The notes under the pieces were generated by a model. It searched no databases, was not told where the DNA came from, and was given only the letters and a program-made list of their open reading frames with translations. DNA of 61,730 bases, taken from NCBI GenBank assembly GCA_043821445.1, contig JBDRCT010000021.1, forward strand, positions 1 to 61,730, written 5' to 3'. Origin of the DNA: Candidatus Omnitrophota bacterium. Its GTDB lineage: Bacteria; Omnitrophota; Omnitrophia; Omnitrophales; Aquincolibacteriaceae. Below are positions 4,360-51,500 of the stretch, piece after piece; the first letter of the stretch is position 1, and each line of letters begins with the position of its first letter. A program made the translations under genes and the position numbers.

Positions 4360-4361
4360 GC

Positions 4362-9946: not shown

Positions 9947-10109
9947 CGCAGAGGGATTTTACCACGAAATTCTGACGCCCGCCTCTATCTTCGATTCCTT
10001 TACTGACCGGGAAAACCGGACAAAGGTTTGGGCGTTGCCTTAAGACGAACTTTTCCCGGATCTTCTTCTTAAGCCCGGCTAGATGCTCACTCAAAAGATC
10101 TTCGTGATG

Positions 10110-10982: not shown

Positions 10983-11061
10983 AAGTGGCGAACGCCCGTT
11001 TCTATTTTCCCGGGAAACGGATATCGGATGGTGGATGGAGCAGGCAATTTATCGCCATCCG

Positions 11062-13210: not shown

Positions 13211-13230
13211 AGACCCTGATTATAAGCCAA

Positions 13231-15869: not shown

Positions 15870-16010
15870 AAAATTTAAACCCGCTTTCCTTAGAATTGAG
15901 GCGTCTCCGTCAAACGAGATTAGCCTTCATGAGTGCCTAGAAACGAGGCGGCATTATACTGATGCTCCTCTGGGGACGCAAGCGTTAAGTCCACAAAAAT
16001 GAGGCGGGGG

Positions 16011-40300: not shown

Positions 40301-43300
40301 CACGAGCCCTGGATCCCGCAACAGAAGCCGCAAATACGCTTCGCCGAAATAGGGGCGCCGCACCGCATAGCTCAAAGAACCCGAAACGGGAACCGGCAAG
40401 TTCGCGATTTTATGGACCATGGCTTGAAAAAAACGATTGGGGTAGTCACGCCAATCGGCAAACAACTGCCGGGCACCTTCTTCGCCGTCAAAAGACTTCA
40501 CACTATCAACGCTCGTGTCGATCATCTGCATTAACGGCCCATAATTGTCCGTTATATTGGAGCTACGAGTGCGGTTTCTTTTCGTAACCCACAGGGCACG
40601 AAGATTCGAAGCCATATTCTCCATGAGATAACGCAACACAATATCATCAAGACCTTCCCGGCTTTCTTTCTGGAAAAGCTCCTGGTAGGAGGCCTCCATC
40701 AGATCATGATCCGCCCAGACCGGAAGAGGCCCGTAGGACTCGCTGACTAACCCGGCCAAACGGTTCGTGTCGAAAGACATCCGAACGGAGTACCAAGTCT
40801 GTTGCCACTTCGTTGCTATAAGTTCAGGGAGTGTGAGAGCATTAAAAAGTCTGGAAGAGTAAACCGTATCCGCCAAGAGTTGGGCCCCTTCCCGCCGAAG
40901 CATCGCGTCCATACCTTTTGCAAAAGACGCTTCCCTGCCCGTTGCGCCGACCCCACCGCCCACACGGGAGGCAGTACCGGTGACCTTTTTATAATCTGCG
41001 CCCGGGATGTACACCATTTTCCTATCGAGTCCGGCCAGAGCATCCGGAGTCACTACGCTTGTAAGAAACGACGCCGCTCCGACACCCTTAAACTCAATCG
41101 TCGCGGCCACTTTGAGGCGAACTTTGCCTTGTCCGGCCAGACGTTTGAGGATCATTCCCGCATTATTTCGTGTCACTTTTTCACCAGCAAGTTCACTGAT
41201 CTCATCGAATGTCGAGAGAATTCGGATGCCGATTCCTTCTTCCACATAGGGCACGACCCAAGGACCCGGCAGGGCAAAAACACGGTTTCCCGTAACCAGC
41301 ATTTTGACCCGTACAGGTTCTCCCGAAGCATTGAATACTTTTTTTAACCCGGCAAATTTCAGTTCTTGTTCCGATAAAACGCTCCCATTGGGATGGTAGA
41401 TCCCATCTCCCGCGATCGGGATGTAGCGCTCGTCGAACCATAAGAGATTTGATTCGTGAGCATCTATCTTTTCGTATAATTCAGCCTCTATGACGCGGAT
41501 CGGCATCATTTCAAAAGGATGCTGCTGCGCCAGGGGATGCTTCCATAGATAGGAAGAGACCATGTGACCGTTCAGAGGATTGATCCCAAGACCGTTTATG
41601 GGATTTTTTTCTAAAATATTCAAACGGCGATTAAAATCCGGCAAACTATCTGGGGTAAACCTCAAAAATCCCTCATCCAATAATCTCAAACCCTCGGGAG
41701 TGTGATCCTCCCGGATCTCGGAGCGAGGTCGTGTCAATAAGGCACCGGCTTTGACATCCATGGCAAAGGTCGCGTCCGGATGTCCTTGCAAGAAGGACGC
41801 GGACACTTCGGAACTCGCCGGCTCCTGTGTGGCTTTTTTGACTGCATCCGCTTTATTTTCTCCAAAAGCCAGGACCGCGATCTTCGCCGCCCTCCGGAAA
41901 GTTTCCGGGCCGATCGTGAGCGCCTGCAAAGGCATTTCCTTGATGCGCGAAAAATCACGCATGTTATCAATGATCGTCGGGACGGCCAGCTCAACGCGCC
42001 GCGTTCGCATGGCCGAAGGTTTTTCCTGTGACAGGACGACCTGGACCGGTCTTCCCAAGGACCGTTCCACCTGCGCTTTGATCTCAGCGAGCTGTTCTTT
42101 CCTTTCATTCGTGATCTCATCCACATAAAAGATCACCTTCTGCCCAAGCAATCCCCGGATCAGTCCGTCCAAGTCCCCGAGATCCTCCGGACCCCACGAA
42201 TCCTTTTTCATCGAAGCCTTCAGAGTCCCCTGAAGTTCCTCGCGAAATTCATTGCTTGTGCGAATGTGGAAATGGTTCGCCAAAGCCATGGTGACGGCTT
42301 GATCAAAATCGACGTCTTGCTCAAGAAGGAATTCGTTGAAATCGGCGAATTTCTTCTCCCATTCGCGCACTTGATCTCCGGACAATTTTTTTCGTATAAG
42401 ATCATTGCCGATAATAATGATCGGTTCATTAAAAGCGATGTGCCCGTCGCGGCCGATACCGCCGAAGCCAAGATCGATACGTCCCGGAAAAGAATTTTCA
42501 TAGCGCCGGCATTCTGCTTCAAAATCTTCCGCATTCCCGTTCAGGAAATGAATGTTCGCGTCCTTAAAGCCAAATTTACGGAGATGCTTGAACAACTTGT
42601 CTTCCATGAACGCACGAAAACTATGGATGTCTTCGGCCCAAACAGGCCCCTTCGCCGTCGGGACAAATCTTTTCATCAAGGATCCGACCACGGTGCTGAC
42701 CGCGGAAGACAAAAAGCCCGCCTGCTTAACCGCTATTGCCGGCACTAGCTTTTTCATCGCCGCACCGGGATAATATTCATCCATGTTGAATGTGTGAAGG
42801 CGGGAAAGATCGATCCGCTCGCTTGCGACGATCCTGATGAACGCATCGTACAATTCGATGGGCGTGCTCCCTGTCGGCAGAATGTATGTCGTATCCCTAT
42901 CGTACCGATTATTGTCCAGAATCGTGTCGGCCATAAGACGGGCGTACTGCTCCACGGCCCGCCGTGTATCACCGTACTCTTCGATGAACAAACCCTGTGA
43001 CGTTTTAAATGCCGCCACCCGGGCCTCGGAGCGGCGTTGGCTTGAGGATCTCCCCGGCACAATGTGGGATTTCACTGTACGCCCTCGGATCTTTTCCGCC
43101 ATGGCTCTTGCCAGCACAGCACCGATTTCTTGCTGGAGTGCAACTCCGTGAAGGTCCCCCCATTTCAAGACCCGCACCAGTTCCTGGGAAGTCTGTTGGG
43201 AACTCTCCAGGTTCGGGAAGAAGGAGACCATCCCTTCAAGAACGCCTCTTGTCTCCGGCGACAGGCCTGAAAGAAGATCACTGCCCAGGATAAGATTAAA

Positions 43301-46300
43301 CAGCCCGTCGGTCACGTTGCTGTCCGGAACATCCACGGCCGCAGCACCTTCGGCCCCCTTCGTGAAAATGTAAAAAGGAGTGGCGGAACTATAATCTCCT
43401 TCCACGCTAACGGAGAACAACCGGGAACCACTCTGCTTTTTATAATTTTTTTCAAGTAGGGCCACGGTATCTTCGGCATACATTCTTAAGGCATAAGGCT
43501 TGATGTAGATCTTTCCGCCATCTTTGAGTTTATCGATGGGACCCTTGTCCGCCAGGAACCTCGCCAGCGGCTCCGGATCGGAATGGAGCAGGACCAGGGC
43601 ATCCAATGTCCTGTCCGGGACGGCCTTGAGAAGTTCCTGAAAATCTTTATTCAGAAGAACAAGGTTGGGCCGGAAAACAGCCTCCCGTTGGATCGTCAGA
43701 TCGTTGCGGAAGAACCGTTCATGGTAATCGCGATATTCCACGCCGTAAGTGTCCGCCGCCACGACCGCGCGGTGCGGATCCCGCGTGATCTCCGCTTCAA
43801 ACTTCCCATCACCCGGTCCGATGGAAAAAATAACTTCTTCGATCTCTCTTCGCGCTCTTTCCGCGGGATCCATCAGTAAAGCGAAACGTTCCATCATTTC
43901 CGTTTCTGGAACACCCGCGGATGATCGTGCTTCGGAGCGGGAAGCCGGGGCCACCAGAGGCAGACCGGGCCGGGTGGTGCCCAGGACCGCGTGAACACGC
44001 ACGATCGTGTTTCCTTTTTTATAGGGGGTTTTTTTCGTTCTGTCGAAATGGATCCACGCCCCAAGGTTATCGTCATTGGGGTTGGAAGATTCCGCGATCC
44101 AACCCTGGGCCGAAAAATCGGACGGAGTGCTGTCCGGAAGCATTTGTATAAAAACGGTCGGCCGGTACCCCCACGAAGAAGGTTTTTCGTTAGTCAAATA
44201 CACCAAGCCATGTTCGAGCGGCTGCGGTTGCGGGACAATGAACCTGTTTTTCCCGGCCGTCGGACTCCGGACCATGGCTTTATTTTCACCCTGATAAATG
44301 GCAAAGTCCGCATCATGCGCCGTGCCGATATTCATGGAGCTGAACTGCAGAACTTTGAACCCTTCATGATTGGCAGCACGATCAGCATCAATCGAAAAGT
44401 TCCGCCTCGCCTTCAACGTAAACGATACCTCCGCCTCAACGCTCTCCTTGAGAGGTTTCCTGAAGATCATTTTAAAATCCTTGGACTGAAAAGCCTCTTT
44501 TTTATCTTCCATGACACCGCTCAAGACGACCGTGCCGTCCTTCCCGGACTTGAACTTCGCCTGGGTAATCCTGGGATTGTGAGAATAAACGCCCTCGCTC
44601 CAATACCCCGGCAGCACAAAGCTGGTCCCCCAATCCACACGCTCCTCGTTCGGCCCGCGATAATTTGCCGGAAGAACACCGCGGAGATAACCGTTCCCTT
44701 TCACGCTGAATATCTGATCACCTTTATAGACGATCTTGATCTCCGTGAAAGTCCCGTGGGGCGTTCGGATCGGCCTGGCCCCCGGACCGCTATCCGTCGC
44801 ACCAATGATCTTCCAATCCCTCGCCGCAAAGATCGTTCTTTCGGAACTCTGCGCTAGTACAACTGATGGCAAGCCTGCGACTGAGGCGAAGGCGAAAGAT
44901 TTCAGACAAAGCCCCAGAAAATATCTCCGGGAGGAACCTTGTAAACGGTTGTCGCGGGCCTCCGAACGAGTTTTTCGCATCTCGGAGCGTCCGGATATTT
45001 GGGAGAGTTGAAAGACCTCCTCCAAAATACGGTCGATATCCTGCTCACCCCGGTAGACCCCCTTGATCTCTGCCGTTCTCTTTTTTGCTCCTTTTTTCAA
45101 GCCATACTCGGCCATCTCCAAGCTCCGTGAGGTAGTAATGTCCCGTTGAATGGCAAATAATCGCGGCAGAACGGAACGGTTTATAAAATTATTTTGGATC
45201 ATATTTTTATCCCCGGATGAGACAATATCTTGAGGGCGATTTGCATCGGGAGGATGGTTATGTAACGCAACCGCATTTTGCAAGGTCATCCAGGGAAAAC
45301 CTCCTACCGTCCCTCCGTCTCCGCACATGACGAAATACCGCTGTTTTCCTGCCCAGAAAGATGTGGTGAGGGTCACTTCAAATTCAAAGTCCGGCAGGGA
45401 TTTGATCAGTTGAAGGAACTGTTCCCGCCCTAAACGTTCCGCCTCGATCACGGCAACCTTTCCGGGGCGTGCCTCTAACGCCCATTTCCGGAACTTCCTG
45501 AGGTCGGCAAGCCTCGCCTTGCCTCTGCAATATTGATCCAAGACATGTTGCTCTTCGTCCGGATGTCCGGCGAGGATCAGTGCTATAAGAGACAGAATGT
45601 CGCCATTGGATCCGACGAGATCTCGAGCCCGTTCCCGGTCCAATTGGATGAGCGCCGGCACGAATTCGGTCCACCGTAATATTCTTACAAGTTGACGGGA
45701 AACGGGATCATTGCCTCGGATGTCGGCAAGCACGCTTTTCAGGGCGGCCCCTTTTTGTCCCAGGTAGACCAGAACATGGTCGAGCCTTTTCTGATTTTCC
45801 CAGTCGCCCTCTTTTTTTCGGACCCGAAGCAGCTGCGGCAAATATTTCAGAAGGTTTTGTTTTATCTCATCATCATTTTTTTCTGCCAACGCTTCCAGAC
45901 TTTCGGTCGCCCACGACCTAACGGCACGAACCGGGTGCTGCGCTCCCGGCACCAAAAGCTCAGGATCTTCGATCGAACCGAATAATTCAGTTGCATGGCT
46001 GATAAAAACACGAAGCATCCACTCCTCTTCTTTTTTCACATTTCCAAGCACATAGCGAAGCAGAAGTTCCTGTTCGGAAAGGGTCAACGGGGACAGGACT
46101 TCGATCTTTTCCTGGGGATCTCTTAGGGCCCGAAGCTCTTCTTGGATCTTTTCAATCAACCTCTCCGCATCCGTCGCACGCACTTCAGAGCGTGGTACCG
46201 AAAGAGGCCATCTGATTTCTGCTCCCGGCACAAGAACGCTGGCGAGGACCGGTTCGGCGGTGGTAATGGATTTGAGGAGTTGGGCGATGCCGGATTCGCT

Positions 46301-48211
46301 AAGTTTGCCTGCGGCCTGAAGTTTCTTAAGGCCATTCCCGAAATGCTCGATGTTGGCGAGCCATTTTTCTTTTAAGTTCGGAGTCTGGAGTCCGGAGTCC
46401 GGAGAAAGCTCGTCGATGAAGCGGGTGTAGCCGGACGCTTCGGCGATCCGTCCCTGCTCCGCCAGGTCGCGGATGATCTGGTCGCGCCATTGCTTGCGCA
46501 CGGAACTCGGAACTCGGGACTCGAGGTTCGTTAAGCCATTCGTATGCAAAAGCTTGTCCCTGGTAGCACGGACAAAAGCATCGTAGAGATTCACTTTGCC
46601 GTTTTTGACCTCGAAGTAGTTCTTCCAGGAAACGTCGCCCTCCATGTGCTCGCGATAAAGCGATTGTTCGGGAAGACGATCGATCTGGGGCACCACAAGA
46701 ATGTACGAGATCCCCTTCTCTTTGAATGTCTGTGTCAGCCCTCCGGTGTGGAAGCCCCCAGCTACAAGGATCGCTGTGTTTGCAGTGCGGGGCTCGTTTT
46801 TTTTCATTAGATCATTCAAATTTTTATAAAAAACTTCGTCGCGCTGCTCGGCAATGCGATAGAAACGAAGGTGGGGCTCGAGTTTTGTCCGCAATTCAGG
46901 ATCAGGGGTCCATGGCTTCACCATGGTCTTCTTCAGGATCGTCCAATCCTCAAAACTGAGTTCCAGCTTGGCGAGGCGTCCCAGAAGCGCCAGTTCTTGG
47001 GTTCGGACATTCAATTGCCGGATCGAGTCCCGGGTTGCGAGCTCCGAGTCTCCGATCATTTTTTCCGTTACCGCTTTCGTATAACGCTCGAAGTCTTCAA
47101 ACAGGCGCGTGCCTTCGATGTCCCGCAATTTCTTTTGATCTTCCACCAGGGAGGCGAGCTCACGGGAGACTTTGATCTTCACATTCTGTTGCTTCGCGAG
47201 GTCCTTCAGGAATAAGGCAAAGGCCTGCGGTGTCAACTGTGATGTCTGGTATTCCTGCCGCTTTCCGTAGAATGCTTGGAGTTCATGTTCAAGCTCCGGC
47301 GAGGCAGATCGACTCTTGAGAACCGACTCCATTTGTTCCGCGATCTTTTTGACTTCGATCGAAAGACTCTGTTCTGTTGTTTCTTGTCTCTTGTCTCTTG
47401 CTTCTTGCTTTTGGTTGATCTGAATTTCTCCAAGCAATACCGCGAGTTCCGAACCTTCGGGAGGCAGCAGGTATTGACTTAGCCCGCTCAGGACTTGCGC
47501 AAGGTCGGTCTTATTTTCGCCGAACTGCGCAAGAAGACGGTCGACCTTAAGAAGATCTCCGGGGTAAATCGCCTCTTTTTCCCGTTCTAGGTCGATGATC
47601 CGTTGCTGGAGCAATGCCGTGACTTCACCTTCTGTTTTCATGGCTTCTAAGAAGTTGGCGATCCCTTTTTCGTAAAGTTCCCAATCTTCGATGCCTTGAA
47701 AGATCGTTGTGTTTCCGCCAGAGGCGGATCCGCCTCCGGCGGAGAACAAAGCGGCCGCTGTCCCGCCGGTAAGCTCGCCTTTTTCGGAATAATCATCGAA
47801 CGTCTTACGGAGCAGTCCCTGATCCGGAAAACTCCGGAAGATCTGCGGGTCCAGCCTTTCCGAAGCTCCTTCAAGTCCGACGAGAGTGACCCCGTACTCT
47901 TTTTGAAAAAGATCAATAGCAGACTGGATACTGCGTTGGGCATCAGGAACGGAGTGGGCGTCCTGGATCAAGATCACTGTTTTGTCGCTTGCCCCACGGT
48001 AGATTTCCCGGATCTTTCCAATCTCAGCGGGGAGCGAGATATCCATCAAATCCTTAAACGGTGTGACAGGATCCGGACGGACAGAAGACACCGTATTCGC
48101 ATAGGCAGAAGGCATCGTCCATGTCACACTCGTGAGTGTGAACATAAAGACCACCCCCCAAACGATGGCTCGCAAAGCGGCGCCGTAGTTTTTCTTACTT
48201 TTTATGGTCAT
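31301..48211 (-). CDS. Giant modular ORF 1 (5,636 aa): signal peptide + conserved N-module + ~15 cargo modules + conserved C-module
   Basis: Uninterrupted 16,911-nt ORF. Sec-type N-terminus (MTIKSKK..AIVWGVVFMFTLTSV..AYA-N). Contains 15 RSExR junction motifs plus 1 RAEVR. Recognisable internal domains are listed as separate features. The terminal modules are paralogous to the neighbouring giant ORF. Confidence 0.85.
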   Translation of the reverse strand: MTIKSKKNYGAALRAIVWGVVFMFTLTSVTWTMPSAYANTVSSVRPDPVTPFKDLMDISLPAEIGKIREIYRGASDKTVILIQDAHSVPDAQRSIQSAIDLFQKEYGVTLVGLEGASERLDPQIFRSFPDQGLLRKTFDDYSEKGELTGGTAAALFSAGGGSASGGNTTIFQGIEDWELYEKGIANFLEAMKTEGEVTALLQQRIIDLEREKEAIYPGDLLKVDRLLAQFGENKTDLAQVLSGLSQYLLPPEGSELAVLLGEIQINQKQEARDKRQETTEQSLSIEVKKIAEQMESVLKSRSASPELEHELQAFYGKRQEYQTSQLTPQAFALFLKDLAKQQNVKIKVSRELASLVEDQKKLRDIEGTRLFEDFERYTKAVTEKMIGDSELATRDSIRQLNVRTQELALLGRLAKLELSFEDWTILKKTMVKPWTPDPELRTKLEPHLRFYRIAEQRDEVFYKNLNDLMKKNEPRTANTAILVAGGFHTGGLTQTFKEKGISYILVVPQIDRLPEQSLYREHMEGDVSWKNYFEVKNGKVNLYDAFVRATRDKLLHTNGLTNLESRVPSSVRKQWRDQIIRDLAEQGRIAEASGYTRFIDELSPDSGLQTPNLKEKWLANIEHFGNGLKKLQAAGKLSESGIAQLLKSITTAEPVLASVLVPGAEIRWPLSVPRSEVRATDAERLIEKIQEELRALRDPQEKIEVLSPLTLSEQELLLRYVLGNVKKEEEWMLRVFISHATELFGSIEDPELLVPGAQHPVRAVRSWATESLEALAEKNDDEIKQNLLKYLPQLLRVRKKEGDWENQKRLDHVLVYLGQKGAALKSVLADIRGNDPVSRQLVRILRWTEFVPALIQLDRERARDLVGSNGDILSLIALILAGHPDEEQHVLDQYCRGKARLADLRKFRKWALEARPGKVAVIEAERLGREQFLQLIKSLPDFEFEVTLTTSFWAGKQRYFVMCGDGGTVGGFPWMTLQNAVALHNHPPDANRPQDIVSSGDKNMIQNNFINRSVLPRLFAIQRDITTSRSLEMAEYGLKKGAKKRTAEIKGVYRGEQDIDRILEEVFQLSQISGRSEMRKTRSEARDNRLQGSSRRYFLGLCLKSFAFASVAGLPSVVLAQSSERTIFAARDWKIIGATDSGPGARPIRTPHGTFTEIKIVYKGDQIFSVKGNGYLRGVLPANYRGPNEERVDWGTSFVLPGYWSEGVYSHNPRITQAKFKSGKDGTVVLSGVMEDKKEAFQSKDFKMIFRKPLKESVEAEVSFTLKARRNFSIDADRAANHEGFKVLQFSSMNIGTAHDADFAIYQGENKAMVRSPTAGKNRFIVPQPQPLEHGLVYLTNEKPSSWGYRPTVFIQMLPDSTPSDFSAQGWIAESSNPNDDNLGAWIHFDRTKKTPYKKGNTIVRVHAVLGTTRPGLPLVAPASRSEARSSAGVPETEMMERFALLMDPAERARREIEEVIFSIGPGDGKFEAEITRDPHRAVVAADTYGVEYRDYHERFFRNDLTIQREAVFRPNLVLLNKDFQELLKAVPDRTLDALVLLHSDPEPLARFLADKGPIDKLKDGGKIYIKPYALRMYAEDTVALLEKNYKKQSGSRLFSVSVEGDYSSATPFYIFTKGAEGAAAVDVPDSNVTDGLFNLILGSDLLSGLSPETRGVLEGMVSFFPNLESSQQTSQELVRVLKWGDLHGVALQQEIGAVLARAMAEKIRGRTVKSHIVPGRSSSQRRSEARVAAFKTSQGLFIEEYGDTRRAVEQYARLMADTILDNNRYDRDTTYILPTGSTPIELYDAFIRIVASERIDLSRLHTFNMDEYYPGAAMKKLVPAIAVKQAGFLSSAVSTVVGSLMKRFVPTAKGPVWAEDIHSFRAFMEDKLFKHLRKFGFKDANIHFLNGNAEDFEAECRRYENSFPGRIDLGFGGIGRDGHIAFNEPIIIIGNDLIRKKLSGDQVREWEKKFADFNEFLLEQDVDFDQAVTMALANHFHIRTSNEFREELQGTLKASMKKDSWGPEDLGDLDGLIRGLLGQKVIFYVDEITNERKEQLAEIKAQVERSLGRPVQVVLSQEKPSAMRTRRVELAVPTIIDNMRDFSRIKEMPLQALTIGPETFRRAAKIAVLAFGENKADAVKKATQEPASSEVSASFLQGHPDATFAMDVKAGALLTRPRSEIREDHTPEGLRLLDEGFLRFTPDSLPDFNRRLNILEKNPINGLGINPLNGHMVSSYLWKHPLAQQHPFEMMPIRVIEAELYEKIDAHESNLLWFDERYIPIAGDGIYHPNGSVLSEQELKFAGLKKVFNASGEPVRVKMLVTGNRVFALPGPWVVPYVEEGIGIRILSTFDEISELAGEKVTRNNAGMILKRLAGQGKVRLKVAATIEFKGVGAASFLTSVVTPDALAGLDRKMVYIPGADYKKVTGTASRVGGGVGATGREASFAKGMDAMLRREGAQLLADTVYSSRLFNALTLPELIATKWQQTWYSVRMSFDTNRLAGLVSESYGPLPVWADHDLMEASYQELFQKESREGLDDIVLRYLMENMASNLRALWVTKRNRTRSSNITDNYGPLMQMIDTSVDSVKSFDGEEGARQLFADWRDYPNRFFQAMVHKIANLPVPVSGSLSYAVRRPYFGEAYLRLLLRDPGLVADAERAFAEADRTGSAGIGESEFMALTEEFLKKAFPPATNLQETENRRSDPPSQSEGRIRPDSPNRAEVRDVTVSQPGPGVVRLTSTGKELLTPHADGGYHVDDFVGEASKTRTVMYQGATAKEFLKRTNVFEHETQVVVPAGAEAIVTTEGESFKLSEPGVIGMSHHTTASVAVTRGDIVVITLDKSPAWYEWREEDSGKNVTGKAWEKGGVVVYRHRDRKNWYDLKNGVEGEMGWITDSTTQRFPRSRFPPIVGVSRVEYPEHSGVFSFHDLRTAENLHEHPILNGNWELVETYVVTRGAAALVYFIKDPTGHYRPEILYLRPGDAAFVQPGTIHDLLAIEAPYEHVVFFTPSVHQYGYGTFKRLVEDQEVGMDRAALVKEAMARLRSEIRSSDAVDPEFRAKVMEPIGEKLAERRNGQDYQILILVGASGNGKTEIAKLLQSQGVGEYGPEDIAFMETDDYLGSWSHETPFKLDFFKDDLDALLTQGKRLVIISGVYTPNFLTGYEDHIVDVLLDSPVEQSRLRALVRDGGIAPHKETYRMFKDAPRSIYDLVLTDIPSFSPPLKRSATGSSFSFVSPEIYGKRLGEQSYRVSVRDMDRIIDLIYRESERSGLVTWIDPLSNVLSDVEQLVRGVERTLESMRDKGNTSVIMTVRSFEKGLEVILDGQQDDGTRPRWGDSLSFMVDYIPERFFARKGWWVARTIDKPWEGTSPKPEGGVLAAFGFPSARIDQPRFKNSYSVFTSSAGQRSESREEKPVVGSLSERELQDKIAEIETLNLPGRYAPIIQWIKGEGNLYLPASELTEQTAIVDLGTSTGYGALDLHEAFPAPYIYAVDPKEPSGVAITLHPSDKIVLKKADQRLLGFDFADKGGRPLRVKVIILFNVMQFYRPDEVADIVRQSTEKLDEGGLYILGVRYPTGRTKEFPVLKLMILQKVNGAMVPRELILRQFTDNKSTNLADWVRFMSDDSARVFGPRLATIDRKINAVRTAMLPLEAATLLVQGSTPQIEHRIFQTQQQTLLEEGVQFRPFNFPSDLFGDGSQNESVPIAIPFDQPALRGGSLPFAGRSEMRDAGGQLRSANRISLPVRVVLPGAWKMMAPDLMVVDRLFFVYMTLLQRIAADRDLRETVLNFGDPIKADNSRERNIVHLFRTGRNGGNVAAFWHAKDAGASNLETGAQGLSILFYRLGKLLLEKLPHKEAERLKNGLARWTQRREPSTPDDLLSRFIGTTAVQVSDDTVRQPELEWVLRHERAHWALRVKANPADRETLKKGYVAFLRSANGPKVLREFFLKNKSSYDDQVAEDIERVKIGREDQVKFADEFWAQLAYPEEVFHESSPLVQVIEDLRRIDPVFEEAAVLLERLVRYEGDVKAGEDLRAIVADFGLHQMYPEAGLDAARSEMRDEALIKKIEAIQVTGNNQALYNFVFTGSLIPQRYGLFPGADITVHFFEIYKNGTRSVGWMALAPFPGTPFGEGWQGHRLILTDMHIEDHVDRGQGIRTGFLKSLDPGTSLWFLPLTNSTALVEMSRMAVEQLKKLPQADTLLEEFESLLDGLPEGMDLDDEEDLFVDILPLLYRYQETMEQNDGLTSLAELFKKTFLAKVAEKAGFSIKKVWMEKGYDASVEDDTFQLSVEAQKKEAKYEQVFPGAKKGIGVAEEQVQPSMSFERFSRASRIREKVNLIKSGITEGDPYSVLYFGAGIDLPNVLVTTGADEVVMVDSKGVMKEDVERVDRWFKGDFSKETAIHSVADLAEQSADLVRTKATRGFTREDELYGVSLPLSLWAALRSMGVDRMSWGTNENGILFIEFEKPFPAGKNRNVRFYFVRSGNLTEPGMFQSTGNPQLTKIMGREFDAYFQNGGQSLGHFYDHFIDQVRVKENGFWIVDDHYWPDADFRYHPRKKELVKVLQEFGFNVRDALEGDAELTEALRQTGYGEVNVILQNLGGQSLAPAVPGVRSEARVSSRKVEIPDSNHGINEETFYLRPGAGNVIHISVRGKDGMQFRIERGIDQKYVVLEFNPAGRQIGRTLVSGKTVYVGEPSQEDEFKDIHARPYSRGLEQIDFWIKGEGTTIKIVNAGTDVLDISGSFSLDREMGQITSEEEQRSEMRGLAEIDRLSLNQYEIAKRLMQIEEKLKETLNFATEESDAELGNAVAYATLLSMLKKYAGPLSSKRMLEIGSREGYFLMALRELGMSCDGLEIAPKMVSFGKREGLSVFLGSILDLPRSLPGKYDVTFSRQVLDVLDDVTFDGQFREYDETDLVPGIKQARHRELGRRMLANLAALTNSGGISIHEVLDTLDFPVTKEDYENAGFEVLDEVSDEPHKAKIVILRRVSAAATGIRSEMRAAAINAANGTQSTIRELYQSSEPESRISTGFHYETFVLKAADGQKVPVSARILPIEEAPYFYEGLPHEFSREKKQVDDGIAILEAALKDGEGTVEGHFIFSVKQSGEEVFLEIGNVLAQDDNQRTSGVARNLKYVGTRLIQLAVLLSQSDARTRGAIRFASRKQDPDAERFYDALRPYGLNKEPGENSIYWSLKAEDAAKFVRSVDGRVRSQAGEEGILRHFRQVLPVAVPQEKRSETRSGTTEMLKGRVILHVDDDPADRANIQSSLERAGAEVLSVADGKTALEILGKRDVDAVVTDAHMPEMSGAELIRKVQAIKPEISIVMATREDIDNRNDLAHQLGIAVVRKNQVVETLSKLFKPVVPGRSEVRAQKVQLVPLVVEKLANVLEPSRKGVVLDTSEVLAVYELARKDLPALIQVLKTAAEEQMAQRSVQAGKLYDRIKEYQEEIFRKWAARPADSKEAGISVALMMDEKTNQPFLSRFAQVLKTYAGRRKVELIADSALLNTPELRASAGLYREHPLDPKSVKGTLTVLGSNAQVPLGFDAAAEKAAISMVDFGFRPLSVAFKAGNTPDDVLMRDHLELLLAVTLLHMAELIAERKKEDGPVTAAWLKTQLEAFFGIGGMFQANADGSLSILGAVVQQYLAQSAVGKAA
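31304..32155 (-). other. ORF1 C-terminal module (aa 5353-5636), related to the ORF2 C-terminal module
   Basis: Similar length to, and loosely alignable with, ORF2 aa 3951-4220. The extreme tails are similar: ...GAVVQQYLAQSAVGKAA versus ...LTSFIAAQKAMGASA. Confidence 0.5.
32171..32548 (-). other. ORF1 module aa 5222-5347: response-regulator receiver (REC) domain
   Basis: Has VILHVDDDPADR, DAVVTDAHMPEMSGAELI (phospho-acceptor Asp context) and ISIVMATRE. Bounded on both sides by RSETR/RSEVR. Confidence 0.7.
33281..33976 (-). other. ORF1 module aa 4746-4977: class I SAM-dependent methyltransferase domain
   Basis: Motif I MLEIGSREGYF, motif II CDGLEIAPKM, then YDVTFSRQVLD and GGISIHEV. Confidence 0.55.
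37097..38035 (-). other. ORF1 module aa 3393-3705: class I SAM-methyltransferase-like fold
   Basis: Motif I-like IVDLGTSTGYGALDL, followed by YIYAVDP and ILFNVMQF, then EGGLYILG. Confidence 0.4.
38051..39121 (-). other. ORF1 module aa 3031-3387: P-loop NTPase/kinase-like domain plus unknown C-terminal half
   Basis: Walker A ILILVGASGNGKTEIA followed by an acidic ETDDY and a hydrophobic strand LVIISG. Resembles small-molecule kinases of the uridine kinase/PRK type. Confidence 0.45.
39137..40090 (-). other. ORF1 module aa 2708-3025: cupin-fold domain in the C-terminal half (possible sugar-phosphate isomerase type)
   Basis: Cupin motif 1 ENLHEHPILNGNWELVETYVVTRG (HxH...E...G) and motif 2 GDAAFVQPGTIHDLLA (G..P.G..H). 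Confidence 0.5.
41726..43018 (-). other. ORF1 module aa 1732-2162: glucosamine-6-phosphate deaminase / 6-phosphogluconolactonase (NagB/Pgl) fold with two large insertions
   Basis: Motifs in canonical order: YILPTGSTPIELY, HTFNMDEYY, IHFLNGNAEDFEAECRRYE, GFGGIGRDGHIAFNEP, ALTIGPETF..AKIAVLAFGENKA. Insertions of about 40 aa and about 130 aa. Confidence 0.7.
46381..46404. repeat. Heptamer array (GAGTCYG)x3.4 inside giant ORF1
   Basis: gagtctg gagtccg gagtccg gag. It is the reverse complement of the CGGACTC family. Confidence 0.75.
46501..46521. repeat. Heptamer array (CGGRACT)x3 inside giant ORF1, inverted relative to 46381-46404
   Basis: cggaact cggaact cgggact. Same unit family as the ORF2 (CGGGACT)4. 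Confidence 0.75.
47383..47410. repeat. Heptamer array (CTTGTCT)2(CTTGCTT)2 inside giant ORF1
   Basis: cttgtct cttgtct cttgctt cttgctt. Encodes part of NQKQEARDKRQETTEQ. Confidence 0.8.
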
Positions 48212-48537: not shown

Positions 48538-51500
48538 TTACGCTGAGGCCCCCATGGCTTTCTGAGCCGCGATAAAACTCGTTAGATTGGCCATTAACTC
48601 GCCTAACCGGCCTTCCCTGTCCAACATCGCAATAGCAATGAACGGAATCATACCTTCCAAGGAACCCAGGAGCTTGTCCGCCGCCAAAAGCGCCGAGGCG
48701 GTTTGCTTGAGCGGACTCGTTGCATCCCCGATCACGCTCAAAAGATACTTGCGACCGCCGATCTTGGCCTGCACCGCAGGATCTTCCTGGTCCATAACGA
48801 GCGCTACCGCTGTACCGCGAGGAGCGGCATCATTATAGAACGCCGTGAATTGAACGTTAAAGTCGGATGCGTTCGAAACCGCATTCACCTTGAAATTTTT
48901 TCCGAGGACATCGCCAGCACCCACGGCAAGAGCCTTCTCGAAGGCTTTGACATCATCGACATGCGCGATCAGCGCCAGTGTCACCTGGGCTCTCGGGTTA
49001 TAGCGTGCAAAAGCTACCAATGGCAGGACACTCGCCACATCCGGAACTCCGTGGCGTAAATCAACCAAGAGTCTTTCCTTGGAAGCCCTCGCGGAATGGG
49101 ACAAGATCGTTTTGAAAATGGTCCACTTGCTGAACGCCGCAGGAATGGCCGGCACTGTGCTGAAATGTTCAGGAAAAAGTTTTTGAGCGATCCCGGTAGC
49201 GACCCCCGCAGCAAACACCTTCGCTGCGGTCGCGATTGAAAGGATACGCGCGGTCACTTTCTCGGCCGTGATCAACGCGGCTTCAAGCGTCGGATTCCGC
49301 TCAAGAGAGATTTGTCCTATCGAAATGTTCAAGTCCCCGATGACCGCTTCCCGCACTTCCGAGCGGGAGGCTTCCCCTTGATCTTGTGGGATTGCGGGTG
49401 TAGCCGGAGTTTCGGATTGCACAACAGGAGTCGTGGGACTCACTTTTGCCGGTTTTTGACGCTCAAGCACCCGTTGGACTGCAAAAGCGGTGGAAGCGGT
49501 CAATCCTGCTGTTGCAATTTCTTTTACCCCTTGCAAAAGCGGTAGGATCATTTTTGCCAAGACCTTCCCCAGTTCCACGCCCCACTGATCGAAACTGAAA
49601 ATATTGAGGATGAACCCCTCCGCGGCAACCTGATGCTCATACATGGCGATCAATTTTCCGAGCATATAGGGAGTCAACTCATCGATCAAGATCAAATTAG
49701 TGGGTTTGCTCCCCTCAAAGGTCTTGTGTCTTGCCAACCATAGGAAATCTTCCTCCGTCCAATTTTCATATTTCTTTGGATTTTTTGCCTGGTCCGCTTT
49801 GAGTTCCGCTAAAACTTGAGTCGTGGACTTCCCGACCGCAAGGGCTTCCGTCTGACCCAAAAGGTTTGACAGGAGCACTTGATGATGCCCCGGCACCGTA
49901 TGCGAAGGATTGATGAAACCGATGAAGTCCTCTGGTATCACATCCCCCTGATGCGGTTGCTGTTGGTAAGCATGTTGACCGTTTGTCATGGCTTCCCCAA
50001 AAACCGAAGAGCTCGTGCTATACGTCACACGTTTGCCATTACGGTCAATGCTTTTGCCGTTCGACTCCATGAACAATTGCTGAAGATAGGCCCCCAGACG
50101 GCTTAAAAGCTGGGAGTACGGCGCCACAATAAAAACCGTCATCTTCAGAAAAATACGGTTCCAGATATCCAGAAGGGCCTTCAGTACCGGGATGTTTTTG
50201 GCGAACGGTGCCGTCCGGAAATGCACATCCATCTCATGGGCGCCGGCGAGCATTTGGAAGAAATTCTCCGGCCCGATTGCGAGCATGATCGGAAGACCGA
50301 TCGCCGACCACATGGAGTAACGACCGCCGACCCAATCCCAAAATTCAAACATATTCGCCGTATCGATCCCGAATGCTTTGACCAATTCTTCCGCTGTTGA
50401 GACCGCCATAAAATGACTCGCGACCGCCCTCTCGTCGCCTTGGTAATGTTTCAGGAGCCAATTTTTGGTCGTAACGGCGTTCATAATGGTTTCTTGTGTC
50501 GTATAGGTCTTGGACAACACAAGAACAAGCGTTTCTTCGGGATCAAGTTCCTGCGGCACGCCCGGCATTTGCCCCGTAACCTTGCTTGCGACATCCGCGC
50601 CATCAACGTTAGCAACGAAATAGAATTTCATACCTGTCACCCGGGATGCCTCCAAGGCCAAAACTGCCATCTCAGGCCCAAGATAAGAACCGCCGATCCC
50701 TTCGACTACAACATTTTTAAATTGCTTGCCGGTATATCCTTTCCGTGCTCCGGAATGGATTTCACGGACGAATTGGGCCATTTTATTGAGAACTTTCAGC
50801 ACGTCCGGCATCACGTCTTTGCCGTTGACGATCATCGGCCCTGCAGAGATCCATTCTCCGGTCGCTTCATCTTTCTTGATATTACGCAAAGCTGAATGAA
50901 AAACCGGCCGTTTTTCCGTTTCGTTGATCGGAGCTCCGGCGAACATGAGATCGATCGACTTCCGAAGTCCCGTTTTCCCGGCAAGCTTGACCAAGAGATT
51001 AAGGACCTGCTTTGTGATAAGGTTCTTGGACCCGTCAAAATAAAAGTCCCCGAGATCCACGGAGAAGTTCTCACGTCGTGTAGGATCTTTCTCGTACGCT
51101 TTCGCGATGTTCATTCTTTTCACGAACGGAGCAAAAATCTTGAGCGTCATCCATTCCCACGATCTTGACGGATTGACGCGCGGCAATATGCCCTCGCGGA
51201 CCTCAGAGCGGGTTTGACCGGACCGGAGTTCCTTCACTTGGGCCTCAAGCTTTTGGATTTGCTGTTCGAAACTGGCCAGACTGGCCTTCGCCTGCTCGCG
51301 TTGCGATGTTCCGCCTGGCAACAATTCCGGCTGGTCCGTATAGGCAGACACTATCAAGTTCCCCATTGCCTCTTGCAATATCCGGATCTGGGCCAAGAGC
51401 CCTGGGATCCGTGCATCGGTTCTCGCTTCGGAGCGCGCAGACTGAAGTTTTTTGAGCGTTCCCTGGAGCCGTTTAACGCGGCTCGGAATATCCACCAACA

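What the first reader, a model, noticed from the sequence alone, without database searches (positions are those of the whole stretch)
44849..44935. Internal twin-arginine (Tat) signal peptide directly after a junction motif, ~1,090 residues into ORF1
The module that follows RSEAR (aa 1082-1086) begins DNRLQGSSRRYFLGLCLKSFAFASVAGLPSVVLAQ-SS.

- This is an S-R-R-x-F-L consensus, a hydrophobic h-region and an A-x-A-like cleavage site.
- It is a textbook Tat leader, but it is embedded in the middle of a giant ORF.
- A Tat leader can function only at a free N-terminus.

This supports one of two views: modules are liberated at the junction, or the giant ORF was built by fusing formerly independent secreted-protein genes.
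Basis: partly seen in the sequence, partly recalled or inferred. Interest (0 to 1): 0.7.

Follow-up and report, generated by a model that had tools for sequence, protein, structure and literature searches.

The report
Export signal inside a bacterial polyprotein
A giant gene of an uncultured Omnitrophota bacterium strings about 16 unrelated proteins together. One of them starts, 1,090 residues in, with its own export signal straight after a conserved five-residue joint, which suggests the giant protein is cut into separate proteins as viral polyproteins are.

Summary
**Observation: confirmed.** ORF1 (window 31301-48211, minus strand, 5,636 aa) reads RSEMR-KT-RSEAR-DNRLQGS-SRRYFL-GLCLKSFAFASVAGLPSVVLA|Q at aa 1075-1121. 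This is the only [ST]RRxFL in 9,856 aa (0.023 expected) and the only strong internal hydrophobic segment of ORF1.

**What it is.**
- The following module folds confidently as an all-beta sandwich. Its best structural matches are the periplasmic glucanases OpgD and OpgG of E. coli; OpgD is Tat-dependent.
- 29 of 33 stand-alone homologues carry an N-terminal signal peptide at the same position, but of Sec or lipoprotein type.
- Embedded homologues in other Omnitrophota giant proteins have RSExR followed by a leader: TRRTFL, SRRNFM, SRRDWL, or SKRYFL in the closest relative.
- Across 34 such proteins, 14 of 23 internal Tat-type motifs lie within 45 aa after an RSExR (7.7% expected, p about 1e-10).

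**Best reading (about 0.55).** The ORF is a polyprotein of cassettes cut at RSExR. This cassette is released with a working export signal, probably Tat, and goes to the periplasm.

**Caveats.**
- The curated Tat profiles miss this particular leader, although they detect sister leaders and the E. coli controls.
- Cleavage, the protease and Tat genes are all unshown.

I found no paper describing this.

The parts
31301..48211 (-). Giant ORF1, 5,636 aa. It runs head domain, then about 15 junction-bounded modules, then a tail.
   Evidence: ORF list and translation. 15 RSExR plus 1 RAEVR junctions. Pfam finds Glucosamine_iso, methyltransferase and Response_reg in separate modules. The identical protein is in the public collection as P0001.
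44954..44989 (-). Double junction RSEMR-KT-RSEAR (aa 1075-1086) directly upstream of the leader, leaving an 'empty' 2-residue module.
   Evidence: Across both ORFs the junction pentapeptide occurs 33 times exactly plus once as RAEVR, against 0.26 expected. Synonymous codons vary freely (five Arg codons at each of the two Arg positions, six in all; five Ser codons; both Glu codons), so selection acts on the protein.
44933..44953 (-). n-region DNRLQGS (aa 1087-1093).
   Evidence: In sister leaders the RR mostly lies 3-15 residues after the junction.
44915..44932 (-). Twin-arginine motif S-R-R-Y-F-L (aa 1094-1099).
   Evidence: The only [ST]RRxFL in 9,856 aa, with 0.023 expected. It matches the TatP pattern. 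It is not detected by TIGR01409 or PF10518.
44852..44914 (-). h/c-region GLCLKSFAFASVAGLPSVVLA (aa 1100-1120), with one Lys at aa 1104. The predicted signal-peptidase I site is V-L-A|Q after A1120.
   Evidence: Strongest internal hydrophobic segment of ORF1. AlphaFold2 gives pLDDT below 50 for module residues 1-22 and 10-residue block means of 44, 43, 50 and 71 over residues 1-40, so the leader is not part of the fold. The cut site aligns with the signal-peptide ends of stand-alone homologues.
43940..44851 (-). Mature domain of the module (aa 1121-1424): an all-beta sandwich resembling OpgD/OpgG.
   Evidence: AlphaFold2 mean pLDDT 89.8, pTM 0.85. Foldseek against the PDB puts E. coli OpgD/MdoD, OpgG and Xanthomonas OpgD on top (E 1e-11 to 7e-10, TM-score on the query 0.62-0.65), followed by the periplasmic P1 domain of YidC. 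An exhaustive sequence search found 131 homologues.
43925..43939 (-). Downstream junction RSEAR (aa 1425-1429), which closes the module.
48098..48211 (-). N-terminal Sec-type signal or anchor of ORF1 (aa 1-38, MTIKSKKNYGAALRAIVWGVVFMFTLTSVTWTMPSAYA).
   Evidence: AlphaFold2 models helix 9-31. It is conserved in the paralogous head of ORF2.
46193..48211 (-). Head domain (aa 1-673), with conserved IQDAH, LEGA and GGFHT motifs.
   Evidence: 28% identical to the ORF2 head. 123 related loci, most of the 80 kept being labelled Omnitrophota MAGs. The link to the Tiki/ChaN superfamily is weak only.
48538..61200 (-). Giant ORF2, 4,220 aa. Same architecture, with 18 RSExR junctions, and it carries aldolase, TIM and PGI modules.
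57181..57258 (-). ORF2 junction RSETR (aa 1315-1319) followed one residue later by a transmembrane segment, WLPAVAGGIALSVTGFVAF. This is the second case in the window of a hydrophobic targeting segment at a module start.

Best explanation
ORF1 is a cellular polyprotein of an Omnitrophota bacterium: a conserved head, a conserved tail, and between them interchangeable cassettes separated by the pentapeptide R-S-E-x-R.

**Proposed mechanism.**
1. The pentapeptide is a processing site, and each cassette carries its own targeting information at its own N-terminus.
2. The cassette at aa 1087-1424 is released as a precursor of about 338 aa. Its first 34 residues are a signal peptide: n-region DNRLQGS, S-R-R-Y-F-L, a moderately hydrophobic h-region, and V-L-A|Q.
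3. The precursor is exported across the inner membrane, most likely already folded and through Tat. A cassette that folds before it is cut out cannot use Sec.
4. Signal peptidase I trims it. The mature product of about 300 aa is an OpgD/OpgG-like beta-sandwich that acts on or binds glycans in the periplasm.

**Shown.** The motif and its position; the fold; signal peptides in the homologues; the coupling of Tat-type leaders to the junction; cassette breakpoints at junctions.

**Inferred.** Cleavage itself, where within or beside RSExR it occurs, the protease, the Tat route, and the glycan function.

**My rough sub-probabilities.** Functional export or anchor signal 0.85; chain cut at the junction 0.65; Tat rather than Sec for this particular leader 0.5-0.6.
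For: **1. Family context.**
- An exhaustive phmmer search found 131 homologues.
- 29 of 33 stand-alone ones have an N-terminal hydrophobic signal ending just before the conserved mature start. Two of the four exceptions (P0021, P0102) have almost no sequence upstream of the mature start, so they may be N-terminally truncated.
- One homologue is fused to a product named mannan endo-1,4-beta-mannosidase.

**2. Embedded homologues keep a leader.**
- Where RSExR is present upstream, the leader follows it (8 to 40 residues to the hydrophobic stretch): SRRYFL (window), SKRYFL (P0002), SRRDWLK plus a lipobox-like AAC (P0003), TRRTFL (P0006), SRRNFM (P0020).
- The leaders of P0020 and P0006 score 25.2 and 16.0 bits on TIGR01409 (cutoff 16.7). 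The E. coli controls TorA and MdoD score 17.2 and 23.1.

**3. The pattern is general.**
- In 34 giant proteins with at least 3 RSExR (117,000 aa), 14 of 23 internal matches to the TatP pattern plus at least 13 uncharged residues lie within 45 aa after an RSExR. The expected share is 7.7% (p about 1e-10).
- With my looser pattern the count is 15 of 18 (p about 1e-14), and one of the three others follows RAEAR.
- Eleven of the 14 belong to proteins other than the four listed as module-family cases. By eye they fall into at least four other kinds of module.

**4. Targeting segments sit only at module starts in the window.** The four strong hydrophobic segments in 9,856 aa are the two ORF N-termini and two segments that start 1 and 14 residues after a junction.

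**5. Topology argues for a break in the chain.**
- The head starts with an N-in signal.
- The leader's N-flank has a net charge of about +5 and its C-flank about +1, so the leader is also N-in.
- No hydrophobic segment follows in the remaining 4,500 aa, which hold a receiver domain, methyltransferases and a NagB-like enzyme.
- All of this is consistent only if the chain is broken on both sides of the module.

**6. Structure.** The leader is disordered in AlphaFold2 and the body is a confident beta-sandwich. The best structural matches are OpgD and OpgG. OpgD/MdoD is a Tat-dependent periplasmic protein (the Lequette 2004 title, as cited in PMC10514313).

**7. Cassette behaviour.** The relative L001 shares the head, two internal modules and the tail, and the HSP ends fall within 1 to 6 residues of the junction motifs. 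It lacks this module. P0002 has the module directly after the head.
Against: - The window's own leader is not recognised by TIGR01409 or PF10518. No hit is listed up to E=10, although HMMER's filters drop most matches above about 0.1. The same runs detect the controls (TorA on TIGR01409 only) and sister leaders.
- It has a Lys inside the early h-region and no basic residue in the c-region.
- The closest relative has K-R instead of R-R. P0004, P0005 and P0007 have no RR.
- Stand-alone homologues use Sec or lipoprotein signals, so the Tat type is not ancestral to the family.
- No tatA or tatC was found in the window or in 1.1 Mb of related loci. This has little power, since about one tatC is expected per genome.
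- No ordinary ORF in these loci shows a convincing N-terminal Tat signal.
- Cleavage at RSExR is not shown, and no protease has been identified. The head's Tiki/ChaN resemblance is weak, and the head seems to be exported, so it is on the wrong side for cytoplasmic processing.
- Both ORFs have exactly one internal hydrophobic segment at a similar depth (aa 1101 and aa 1321). This also fits an uncleaved protein with a single stop-transfer anchor.
- Most of the statistical weight comes from proteins that were found through homology to this very module.
Confidence: 0.55

Rival explanations
1. The cassette is released at the junction as in the best explanation, but the leader is a Sec/SRP-type signal peptide or signal anchor. 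The S-R-R-x-F-L is only a positively charged n-region that happens to fit the Tat pattern.
For: - The Tat profile HMMs miss it while detecting controls and sister leaders.
- The h-region is fairly hydrophobic (Kyte-Doolittle mean about 1.7-1.8).
- The closest relative has KR.
- All stand-alone homologues are Sec or lipoprotein type.
- On its own, the TatP pattern has false-positive rates of 15-23% on RR-containing cytoplasmic and transmembrane proteins (PMC1182353).
Against: - The full S-R-R-x-F-L hexapeptide is expected 0.023 times in the two ORFs.
- Homologous leaders at the same position score as Tat signals (P0020 25.2 bits).
- Tat-type leaders make up about a third of post-junction hydrophobic leaders (11 of 33). 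From my own knowledge this is far above the share of Tat substrates in ordinary bacteria.
- A module embedded in a 5,636-aa chain would probably be folded before release, which disfavours Sec.
Confidence: 0.2
2. The giant protein is not cleaved. The N-terminal signal exports the head and module 2, and the hydrophobic segment at aa 1101-1119 is a stop-transfer anchor, or an internal Tat or signal-anchor as in the actinobacterial Rieske protein. ORF1 would then be a single bitopic membrane protein.
For: - Both giant ORFs have one N-terminal and one strong internal hydrophobic segment at similar depth (aa 1101 and aa 1321). This gives a simple N-out / TM / C-in topology that keeps the glycolytic and regulatory modules cytoplasmic.
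- Omnitrophota giant proteins are described as membrane-associated with many transmembrane helices (bioRxiv 10.1101/2023.11.21.568195; PMC10066038).
- Internal Tat signals do exist (PMC13186574).
Against: - A stop-transfer would put this module in the cytoplasm, whereas its homologues are exported.
- The charge distribution around the segment is N-in.
- If the module is instead threaded out, there is no later membrane segment to bring back the 4,200 aa of cytoplasmic-type enzymes.
- This model does not explain why Tat-type leaders follow RSExR at 3-15 residues in many unrelated modules.
- It also does not explain the recurring A-x-A|Q ends.
Confidence: 0.15
3. The leader is an evolutionary fossil. 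A formerly independent secreted-protein gene was captured into the giant ORF, and its signal peptide is a decaying, functionless linker.
For: - Stand-alone secreted homologues exist in other lineages, for example an Elusimicrobiota MAG.
- Cassettes are gained and lost at junctions.
- RR has changed to KR in the closest relative.
Against: - The hydrophobic leader and its A-x-A end persist in embedded homologues whose mature domains have diverged to 30-60% identity, while the leader sequence itself changes. That indicates selection for the property, not inertia.
- Embedded copies have Tat-type motifs that the stand-alone ones lack, so the leader has been remodelled after capture.
- The same feature recurs in unrelated cassettes.
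Confidence: 0.07

Closest known systems
Viral polyproteins with internal signal sequences (Flaviviridae type; my own knowledge)
   Same: - One long ORF.
- Unrelated functional units separated by short conserved cleavage motifs.
- Internal signal and anchor sequences at unit starts that decide which side of the membrane each unit ends up on.
   Different: - This one is chromosomal, sitting beside tRNA synthetase and menaquinone genes.
- It carries housekeeping enzymes such as PGI, TIM and aldolase.
- No protease has been identified and cleavage is unproven.
- The signal is Tat-like rather than ER/Sec type.
Bipartite presequences of thylakoid-lumen Tat substrates (my own knowledge)
   Same: A twin-arginine signal that is internal in the primary translation product and becomes N-terminal after an upstream proteolytic cut.
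   Different: There the upstream part is a transit peptide of about 50 residues removed by the stromal peptidase. Here it would be about 1,086 residues of other proteins, and the module must also be cut at its C-terminal side.
Internal Tat signal of the Streptomyces Rieske protein (PMC13186574)
   Same: A twin-arginine signal that is not at the N-terminus and directs a downstream folded domain across the membrane.
   Different: - In Rieske the signal is the last of three membrane helices of a small protein, and the exported domain is C-terminal.
- Here 4,200 aa of cytoplasmic-type modules follow, so internal use without cleavage is topologically implausible.
E. coli OpgD/MdoD and OpgG (GH186 periplasmic beta-1,2-glucanases; PMC10514313)
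   Same: - Best structural matches of the mature domain (E about 1e-11, TM-score on the query 0.62-0.65).
- Periplasmic location.
- OpgD is exported by Tat, and its signal scores on TIGR01409.
   Different: - 11-13% sequence identity.
- No Pfam MdoG hit.
- The module is about 300 aa against about 500, so only part of the target is covered (TM-score on the target 0.42-0.46).
- Catalytic residues were not examined.
Giant ORFs of Omnitrophota ('Archaeovorins' and others; bioRxiv 10.1101/2023.11.21.568195; PMC10066038)
   Same: - Same phylum.
- Multi-kilobase ORFs that mix enzymes, including glycolysis-related ones, with membrane segments.
- Cleavage into several products has been suspected.
   Different: [quoted passage not shown]
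- The ORFs here are smaller (4-6 thousand aa), have a defined head, RSExR-delimited cassettes and a tail, and carry internal Tat-type leaders.
- I found none of these features described.
Plastid-targeted polyproteins of Euglena and dinoflagellates, and nematode polyprotein antigens (my own knowledge)
   Same: Cellular, non-viral polyproteins whose units are separated by a short conserved linker and released by a host protease.
   Different: Those are tandem copies of one or two proteins in eukaryotes. Here about 35 mostly unrelated modules lie in two adjacent bacterial genes.

Membership tests
Twin-arginine (Tat) signal peptide | Consensus S/T-R-R-x-F-L-K near the n/h border | tested here: met
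   S-R-R-Y-F-L-G at aa 1094-1099. It matches [ST]RRxFL (0.023 expected) and the TatP default pattern. The consensus Lys is replaced by Gly, with a Lys four residues later.
Twin-arginine (Tat) signal peptide | Uncharged, moderately hydrophobic h-region of about 13-20 residues followed by an A-x-A type cleavage site | tested here: met
   SFAFASVAGLPSVVLA, 16 uncharged residues after K1104, Kyte-Doolittle mean about 1.8 (and by hand). V-L-A|Q obeys the -3/-1 rule and aligns with the cleavage regions of stand-alone homologues. There is no basic 'Sec-avoidance' residue in the c-region.
Twin-arginine (Tat) signal peptide | Recognition by the curated profiles TIGR01409 and PF10518 | tested here: not met
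   No hit is listed up to E=10 for the excised leader or the module; HMMER's filters drop most matches above about 0.1. In the same runs TIGR01409 scored:
- TorA 17.2 and MdoD 23.1;
- sister leaders P0020 25.2, L010 23.6, L025 19.4, P0013 18.1, P0015 16.7 and 16.2, P0006 16.0.

The cutoff is 16.7.
Twin-arginine (Tat) signal peptide | Location at the N-terminus of the transported precursor | tested here: not met
   It starts at residue 1087 of 5,636 in the translation product. The feature would be met only after cleavage at the RSEAR junction, which is inferred and not shown.
Twin-arginine (Tat) signal peptide | Conservation of the RR pair in orthologues | tested here: inconclusive
   - RR is kept in P0003, P0006 and P0020.
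- K-R in the closest relative P0002 (83% identity).
- Absent in P0004, P0005 and P0007.
- 0 of 33 stand-alone homologues match the TatP pattern.
Twin-arginine (Tat) signal peptide | A Tat translocase (TatA, TatC) encoded by the organism | not testable with these tools
   None in the 61.7-kb window. Whole genomes could not be searched.
Proteolytically processed polyprotein | Single ORF encoding several otherwise independent proteins | tested here: met
   Separate modules hit PGI (1.9e-172), TIM (7.4e-58), class II aldolase, Glucosamine_iso, Response_reg and methyltransferase. This module has stand-alone homologues.
Proteolytically processed polyprotein | Conserved short motif at every unit boundary | tested here: met
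   34 R-[SA]-E-x-R against 0.26 expected. The x position is mostly A, V, M or I, and residues -1 and -2 are small. Codons vary freely. The motif is present in related Omnitrophota ORFs, and HSP ends between relatives fall at the motifs.
Proteolytically processed polyprotein | A protease that cuts the motif, and observed products | not testable with these tools
   - The head domain has only weak Tiki/ChaN signals: PF04187 E=0.004 in 1 of 14 members, and Foldseek E above 1 to BcR135 and EreC.
- There is an HNHP...SxxD motif at aa 984-1001, seen by eye, but Pfam is negative.
- No proteomic data were available.
OpgG/OpgD (MdoG superfamily, GH186) | Sequence membership (Pfam MdoG) and a two-domain architecture of about 500 aa | tested here: not met
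   No Pfam or NCBIfam hit for the module. The module is 338 aa. Foldseek identity is 11-13% and the TM-score on the target is 0.42-0.46.
OpgG/OpgD (MdoG superfamily, GH186) | Beta-sandwich fold of the catalytic domain | tested here: met
   The top seven Foldseek hits are OpgD, MdoD and OpgG, with E from 1e-11 to 7e-10, probability 1.00 and TM-score on the query 0.62-0.65. The model has pLDDT 89.8.

The most novel reading that the evidence does not exclude
Some Omnitrophota express a sizeable set of ordinary proteins as chromosomal cassette polyproteins. The set includes glycolytic enzymes, regulators and exported proteins.
- A dedicated, still unidentified protease cuts these polyproteins at R-S-E-x-R.
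- Cassettes are swapped between genomes at the junctions.
- Cassettes destined for the periplasm have been refitted with Tat signals, because they fold before they are released.

The internal leader at aa 1087-1120 would then be the first sequence-level handle on where and why bacterial giant proteins are cut.
Probability: 0.4. Interest if true: 0.9.

Novelty: new variant of a known kind. Interest (0 to 1): 0.8.

Why it matters
Whether the giant ORFs of Omnitrophota and other small-celled bacteria act as single proteins or are cut into pieces is an open question. It is stated explicitly in bioRxiv 10.1101/2023.11.21.568195 and PMC11573180, and both note that no cleavage points are known.

An export signal can do its usual job only if the chain is broken, so it is a built-in reporter of processing. 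Finding such signals repeatedly, 3-15 residues after one conserved pentapeptide, has three consequences:
- It names a candidate cleavage site.
- It makes the question testable with existing metaproteomes, by looking for neo-N-termini at RSExR and at the signal-peptidase site.
- It gives a rule for splitting these ORFs into units for annotation and structure prediction.

If confirmed, this would be a cellular, bacterial use of the polyprotein strategy for housekeeping enzymes. It would also be an example of Tat being recruited because cargo is made pre-folded inside a larger precursor.

Tried and rejected
- **Word-index homology search with the module.** No hits. The exhaustive search was needed.
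- **tblastn of the module against the 80 loci found through the head domain.** No hits. Even the 79%-identical relative lacks this cassette.
- **Tat profile HMMs on the leader.** Negative. I kept this as evidence against 'textbook Tat'.
- **Chance.** Rejected by motif expectation and position.
- **DNA-level repeat or RNA signal at the junction.** Rejected because synonymous codons vary freely.
- **Internal translation starts at the junction.** The x position is Met in only 6 of 34 junctions and Ala in 11, and there is no Met between the junction and the RR. Rejected.
- **Lipoprotein signal in the window leader.** L-G-L-C has Leu at -1 and lies only 6 residues after the RR. Rejected by eye. P0003 does have a lipobox-like F-A-A-C.
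- **Head domain as a Tiki/TraB-type protease.** Only weak signals. Not adopted.
- **JAB/RadC-like motif HNHP...SxxD in module 2 as the junction protease.** Pfam is negative and the motif is absent from the other 33 giant proteins. Left as a lead.
- **Similarity of the ORF1 and ORF2 tails.** Not significant by BLASTP (E 0.14).
- **Tat genes.** None in the window or loci. This test has little power.
- **Literature.** Searches for Omnitrophota with polyprotein, the motif strings, and 'bacterial polyprotein' returned nothing relevant.
- **Contig look-ups.** P0002 gave gene positions but no DNA. The window's TyrRS was not on record.


Full report
**1.
- The window carries two adjacent giant ORFs on the minus strand: ORF1 at 31301-48211 (5,636 aa) and ORF2 at 48538-61200 (4,220 aa).
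- ORF1 reads ...ISG-RSEMR-KT-RSEAR-DNRLQGS-SRRYFL-GLCLKSFAFASVAGLPSVVLA-QSSERTIFAARDW... The stated coordinates 44849-44935 are exactly aa 1093-1121, and the module runs to the next RSEAR at aa 1425-1429.
- [ST]RRxFL is expected 0.023 times in the 9,856 aa of both ORFs and occurs only here.
- A hydropathy scan finds two strong hydrophobic segments in ORF1: its own N-terminus and this leader, which starts 14 residues after the junction.
- ORF2 shows the same pattern: its N-terminus, plus a segment starting 1 residue after RSETR (aa 1321-1339).

**2. Context.**
- The neighbours are ordinary chromosomal genes: TyrRS, IleRS, an ABC transporter, ProC, LspA, Lgt, menaquinone genes and LpxD.
- The N-terminal 'head' domains of the two ORFs are paralogues (28% identity).
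- With them, 123 related places were found in species-representative genomes. Most of the 80 kept are labelled Omnitrophota MAGs, often with several per genome.
- Both ORFs are chains of modules separated by R-S-E-x-R. There are 33 exact copies plus one RAEVR, against 0.26 expected. The x position is mostly Ala, Val, Met or Ile, and small residues precede the motif.
- Synonymous codons vary freely, so the motif is selected at the protein level and is not a DNA repeat.
- Modules include strong PGI and TIM, class II aldolase, a NagB-like enzyme, methyltransferases and a receiver domain.
- Many related Omnitrophota ORFs carry the same motif in numbers: 9 to 11 in 3,000-4,000 aa in L001, L021, L047 and L056.

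**3. The module behind the leader.**
- Pfam and NCBIfam find nothing, and the word-index search found nothing.
- An exhaustive phmmer search of 1.84 billion representatives gave 131 homologues.
- AlphaFold2 with 24 of them gives a confident model (pLDDT 89.8, pTM 0.85). Residues 1-22 have pLDDT below 50 and confidence rises only over residues 31-40. Residues 38-334 form an all-beta sandwich.
- Foldseek against the PDB puts E. coli OpgD/MdoD, OpgG and Xanthomonas OpgD on top (E from 1e-11 to 7e-10, TM-score on the query 0.62-0.65). The periplasmic P1 domain of YidC and the N-terminal domains of glycoside hydrolases follow.
- OpgD and OpgG are periplasmic beta-1,2-glucanases (PMC10514313). [quoted passage not shown]
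- One homologue is fused to a product named mannan endo-1,4-beta-mannosidase.
- The module is therefore most likely an extracytoplasmic glycan-binding or glycan-processing domain. Membership of GH186 is not supported, only fold resemblance.

**4.

Thirty-three homologues have the domain at their N-terminus, with alignments that reach its start.
- 29 of them carry a hydrophobic signal that ends just before the conserved mature start (...LF..G.W.V.G..D). Of the four exceptions, P0021 and P0102 have almost no sequence upstream of the mature start.
- By inspection these are Sec-type or lipoprotein signals, and none matches the TatP pattern.

Twenty-three homologues are embedded in giant proteins.
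- 17 have a hydrophobic segment within 70 aa upstream, and 9 have a junction motif there.
- In the junction-type proteins the leader follows the junction:
  - RSETR-VDHLQDP-SKRYFLGLCLKTF... (P0002, 83% identical, placed directly after the head);
  - RSEAR-AY-SRRDWLKL...FAAC (P0003);
  - RSETR-ILS-TRRTFLTGLF...KALA|Q (P0006);
  - RSELR-NPL-SRRNFMRLSS...IQA|Q (P0020).
  - P0004, P0005, P0007 and P0033 have leaders without RR.
- In giant proteins without the junction, the domain follows an internal membrane helix with a positively charged N-flank.

The domain is thus preceded by an export or anchor signal in most homologues, and the position of that signal is conserved. The RR pair is kept in part of the junction-type copies and is K-R in the nearest one.

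**5. How Tat-like is it?**
- It fits the consensus and the published TatP default pattern RR.[FGAVML][LITMVF]. That pattern covers 97% of the TatP training set, but on its own it has false-positive rates of 15-23% on RR-containing cytoplasmic and membrane proteins (PMC1182353).
- The curated profiles do not see it.
- I calibrated this by scanning excised 55-60-aa N-termini. On TIGR01409 (cutoff 16.7 bits):

| Leader | Bits |
|---|---|
| E. coli TorA (control) | 17.2 |
| E. coli MdoD (control) | 23.1 |
| P0020 (same module family) | 25.2 |
| L010 | 23.6 |
| L025 | 19.4 |
| P0013 | 18.1 |
| P0015 | 16.7 and 16.2 |
| P0006 (same module family) | 16.0 |
| Window leader | no hit |

- Pfam PF10518 behaves similarly. 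It also misses TorA, and no score reaches its 22.7-bit cutoff.
- Tat-type leaders after junctions are therefore real in this class of proteins, but this particular one is an atypical member: Gly for the consensus Lys, a Lys inside the early h-region, and no basic c-region residue.

**6. The pattern is general.**
- I collected 34 giant proteins with at least 3 RSExR, about 117,000 aa, from the homologue list and from ORFs of the related loci.
- With the TatP pattern plus at least 13 uncharged residues, 14 of 23 internal matches lie within 45 aa after an RSExR, where 7.7% is expected (binomial p about 1e-10).
- With a slightly different pattern the count is 15 of 18 (p about 1e-14), and one of the three exceptions follows RAEAR.
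- The RR mostly lies 3-15 residues after the junction, and many leaders end in A-x-A|Q.
- Eleven of the 14 cases are in proteins other than the four listed as module-family cases. By eye they include two families of large modules, HExxH-containing modules in L010, L016 and L025, and a repeat module in P0004.
- **Caveat.** Most of these proteins were found through homology to this module. In the loci found through the head domain alone the signal is weaker: 3 of 9, p 0.03, and two of the three are orthologues.
- Among 928 ordinary ORFs of the same loci and the window, none has a convincing N-terminal Tat signal.

**7. Cassettes.**
- The closest genome in the species set (L001, heads 79% identical) has the same two-gene arrangement.
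- Its ORF1 orthologue shares the head, two internal modules (ORF1 aa 3393-3705 and 3711-4036) and the tail (aa 5353-5636) at 79-86% identity.
- The alignment ends fall within 1 to 6 residues of junction motifs. L001 lacks modules 2-9, including this one, and has others instead.
- P0002 has this module directly after the head.
- The doublet RSEMR-KT-RSEAR in front of the leader looks like the scar of such an exchange.
- The junction-bounded module is therefore the unit of gain and loss.

**8. Mechanism.** The most coherent reading is that each module carries its own targeting information and is released at the junctions. The argument from topology has four steps.
- The head begins with a classical N-in signal: a Lys-rich n-region, 20 hydrophobic residues, then A-Y-A.
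- The leader also has an N-in charge pattern, with flanks of about +5 and +1.
- The domain behind the leader belongs outside the cytoplasm.
- No hydrophobic segment follows in the next 4,500 aa, which hold a receiver domain, methyltransferases and a sugar-phosphate enzyme that belong inside.

An unbroken chain cannot satisfy all four. Cuts at the junctions on both sides of the module can.

A module that has been translated and folded inside a 5,636-aa precursor would need the folded-protein pathway. That would explain why embedded copies show Tat-type motifs that the stand-alone homologues lack. This step is inference.

Not shown: cleavage itself, the scissile bond, the protease, and the presence of a Tat translocase.
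- The head gives only weak Tiki/ChaN-type signals.
- By its own signal the head should be outside the cytoplasm, so it is a poor candidate for cutting cytoplasmic junctions.

**9. Rivals.**
- (a) Release as above, but export by Sec/SRP. This is favoured by the negative profiles, the K-R in the nearest relative and the fairly hydrophobic core.
- (b) No cleavage, with the segment acting as a stop-transfer anchor. This is attractive because both ORFs have exactly one internal segment at similar depth. However, it puts the domain on the wrong side, contradicts the charge pattern, and leaves the junction-leader coupling unexplained. An internal Tat signal as in the Streptomyces Rieske protein (PMC13186574) fails because nothing brings the downstream 4,200 aa back.
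- (c) A fossil leader. This is contradicted by retention of the property across diverged homologues and by remodelling towards the Tat type.
- (d) Chance. Excluded.

**10. Novelty.**
- Giant ORFs of Omnitrophota are known, and cleavage has been suspected because of C39 and S8 peptidase domains. The authors state that no cleavage points are known, and a survey of huge proteins makes the same point.
- Searches for Omnitrophota with polyprotein, for the motif strings, and for bacterial or prokaryotic polyprotein found nothing relevant.
- The principle is known from viruses and plastids: a polyprotein with internal targeting signals, or a Tat signal exposed by upstream processing.
- Its use in a bacterial chromosome for housekeeping and exported proteins, with a defined junction, would be a new variant.

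**11. Verdict.**
- The finding is valuable mainly because it generalises. It turns the question 'are these giant proteins cut, and where?' into one that existing proteomic data could answer.

Noticed in passing
window 48538-61200 and 31301-48211 (minus strand): 34 R-[SA]-E-x-R pentapeptides delimit about 35 modules in two adjacent giant ORFs, against 0.26 expected by shuffling. The x position is mostly A, V, M or I, and small residues sit at -1 and -2. Synonymous codons vary freely, so selection acts on the protein. The same motif is frequent in related Omnitrophota ORFs.
   Followed up: yes
window 57181-57258 (minus strand; ORF2 aa 1315-1340): RSETR is followed one residue later by a transmembrane segment (WLPAVAGGIALSVTGFVAF) that opens a 151-aa module. 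This is the only other strong internal hydrophobic segment in the window, and again it sits at a module start.
   Followed up: partly
window 52864-53751 (minus strand; ORF2 aa 2484-2779): The triosephosphate isomerase module looks circularly permuted. E. coli TIM residues 54-243 align to module residues 1-216, and Pfam TIM starts at profile position 43. A stretch resembling the TIM N-terminus (LVLAANWK...IIVAPP) lies at the C-terminal end of the module.
   Followed up: partly
window 57259-57435, 58780-58956 and about 59182-59343 (minus strand; ORF2 aa 1256-1314, 749-807 and about 620-673): Three copies of a very basic mini-module of about 59 aa (..DSQR...TKNV..T.DH..I.ALHGPNTK...PSQK.RNAKA[GS]), each ending at a junction. 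Function unknown.
   Followed up: no
window 45209-45262 (minus strand; ORF1 aa 984-1001): HNHPPDANRPQDIVSSGD in the module just upstream of the leader resembles the JAB/RadC-type metalloprotease signature HNHP...SxxD. Pfam finds nothing, and the motif is absent from the other 33 giant proteins examined. It is a possible lead to a protease but is unverified.
   Followed up: partly
window 46193-48211 and 59506-61200 (minus strand): Both giant ORFs start with a paralogous 'head': a Sec-type signal plus a domain of about 500-600 aa with invariant IQ.AH, LEGA and GGFHT motifs and a long helical insert. The family has 123 loci, most of those kept being labelled Omnitrophota. Hints to the Tiki/ChaN/EreA superfamily are weak only (PF04187 E=0.004; Foldseek E above 1).
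   Followed up: partly
window 31301-31315 and 48538-48552 (minus strand); C-termini of P0003-P0072: 17 of 18 giant proteins examined end in Ala, usually preceded by small or polar residues (...GKAA, ...GASA, ...GAAA, ...QRAA, ...AQSA) after an amphipathic helix. This may be a conserved C-terminal signal. The ORF1 and ORF2 tails are not significantly similar by BLASTP.
   Followed up: partly
L001 (PLLJ01000035.1), 1-16261, compared with window ORF1 and ORF2: The 79%-identical relative has the same two-gene arrangement. Its ORF1 orthologue (3,701 aa) keeps the head, two modules and the tail, and swaps all other modules. The alignment ends fall at junction motifs, which indicates cassette exchange.
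   Followed up: yes
L001 ORF residues 1571-1618; L010, L016 and L025 modules: L001 has a 48-aa module consisting almost only of a Tat-like leader (RSEVR-EPLMRRHWVQLALGLVAAPAATIGEALA|Q...). L010, L016 and L025 have Tat-type leaders in front of modules with HExxH zinc-protease motifs.
   Followed up: no
window 14156-15504 (minus strand): Lgt and signal peptidase II (LspA) genes are present, so lipoprotein processing exists. This is relevant to the lipobox-like leaders of some embedded homologues (P0003). The futalosine-pathway menaquinone genes and LpxD point to a diderm, respiring cell.
   Followed up: no
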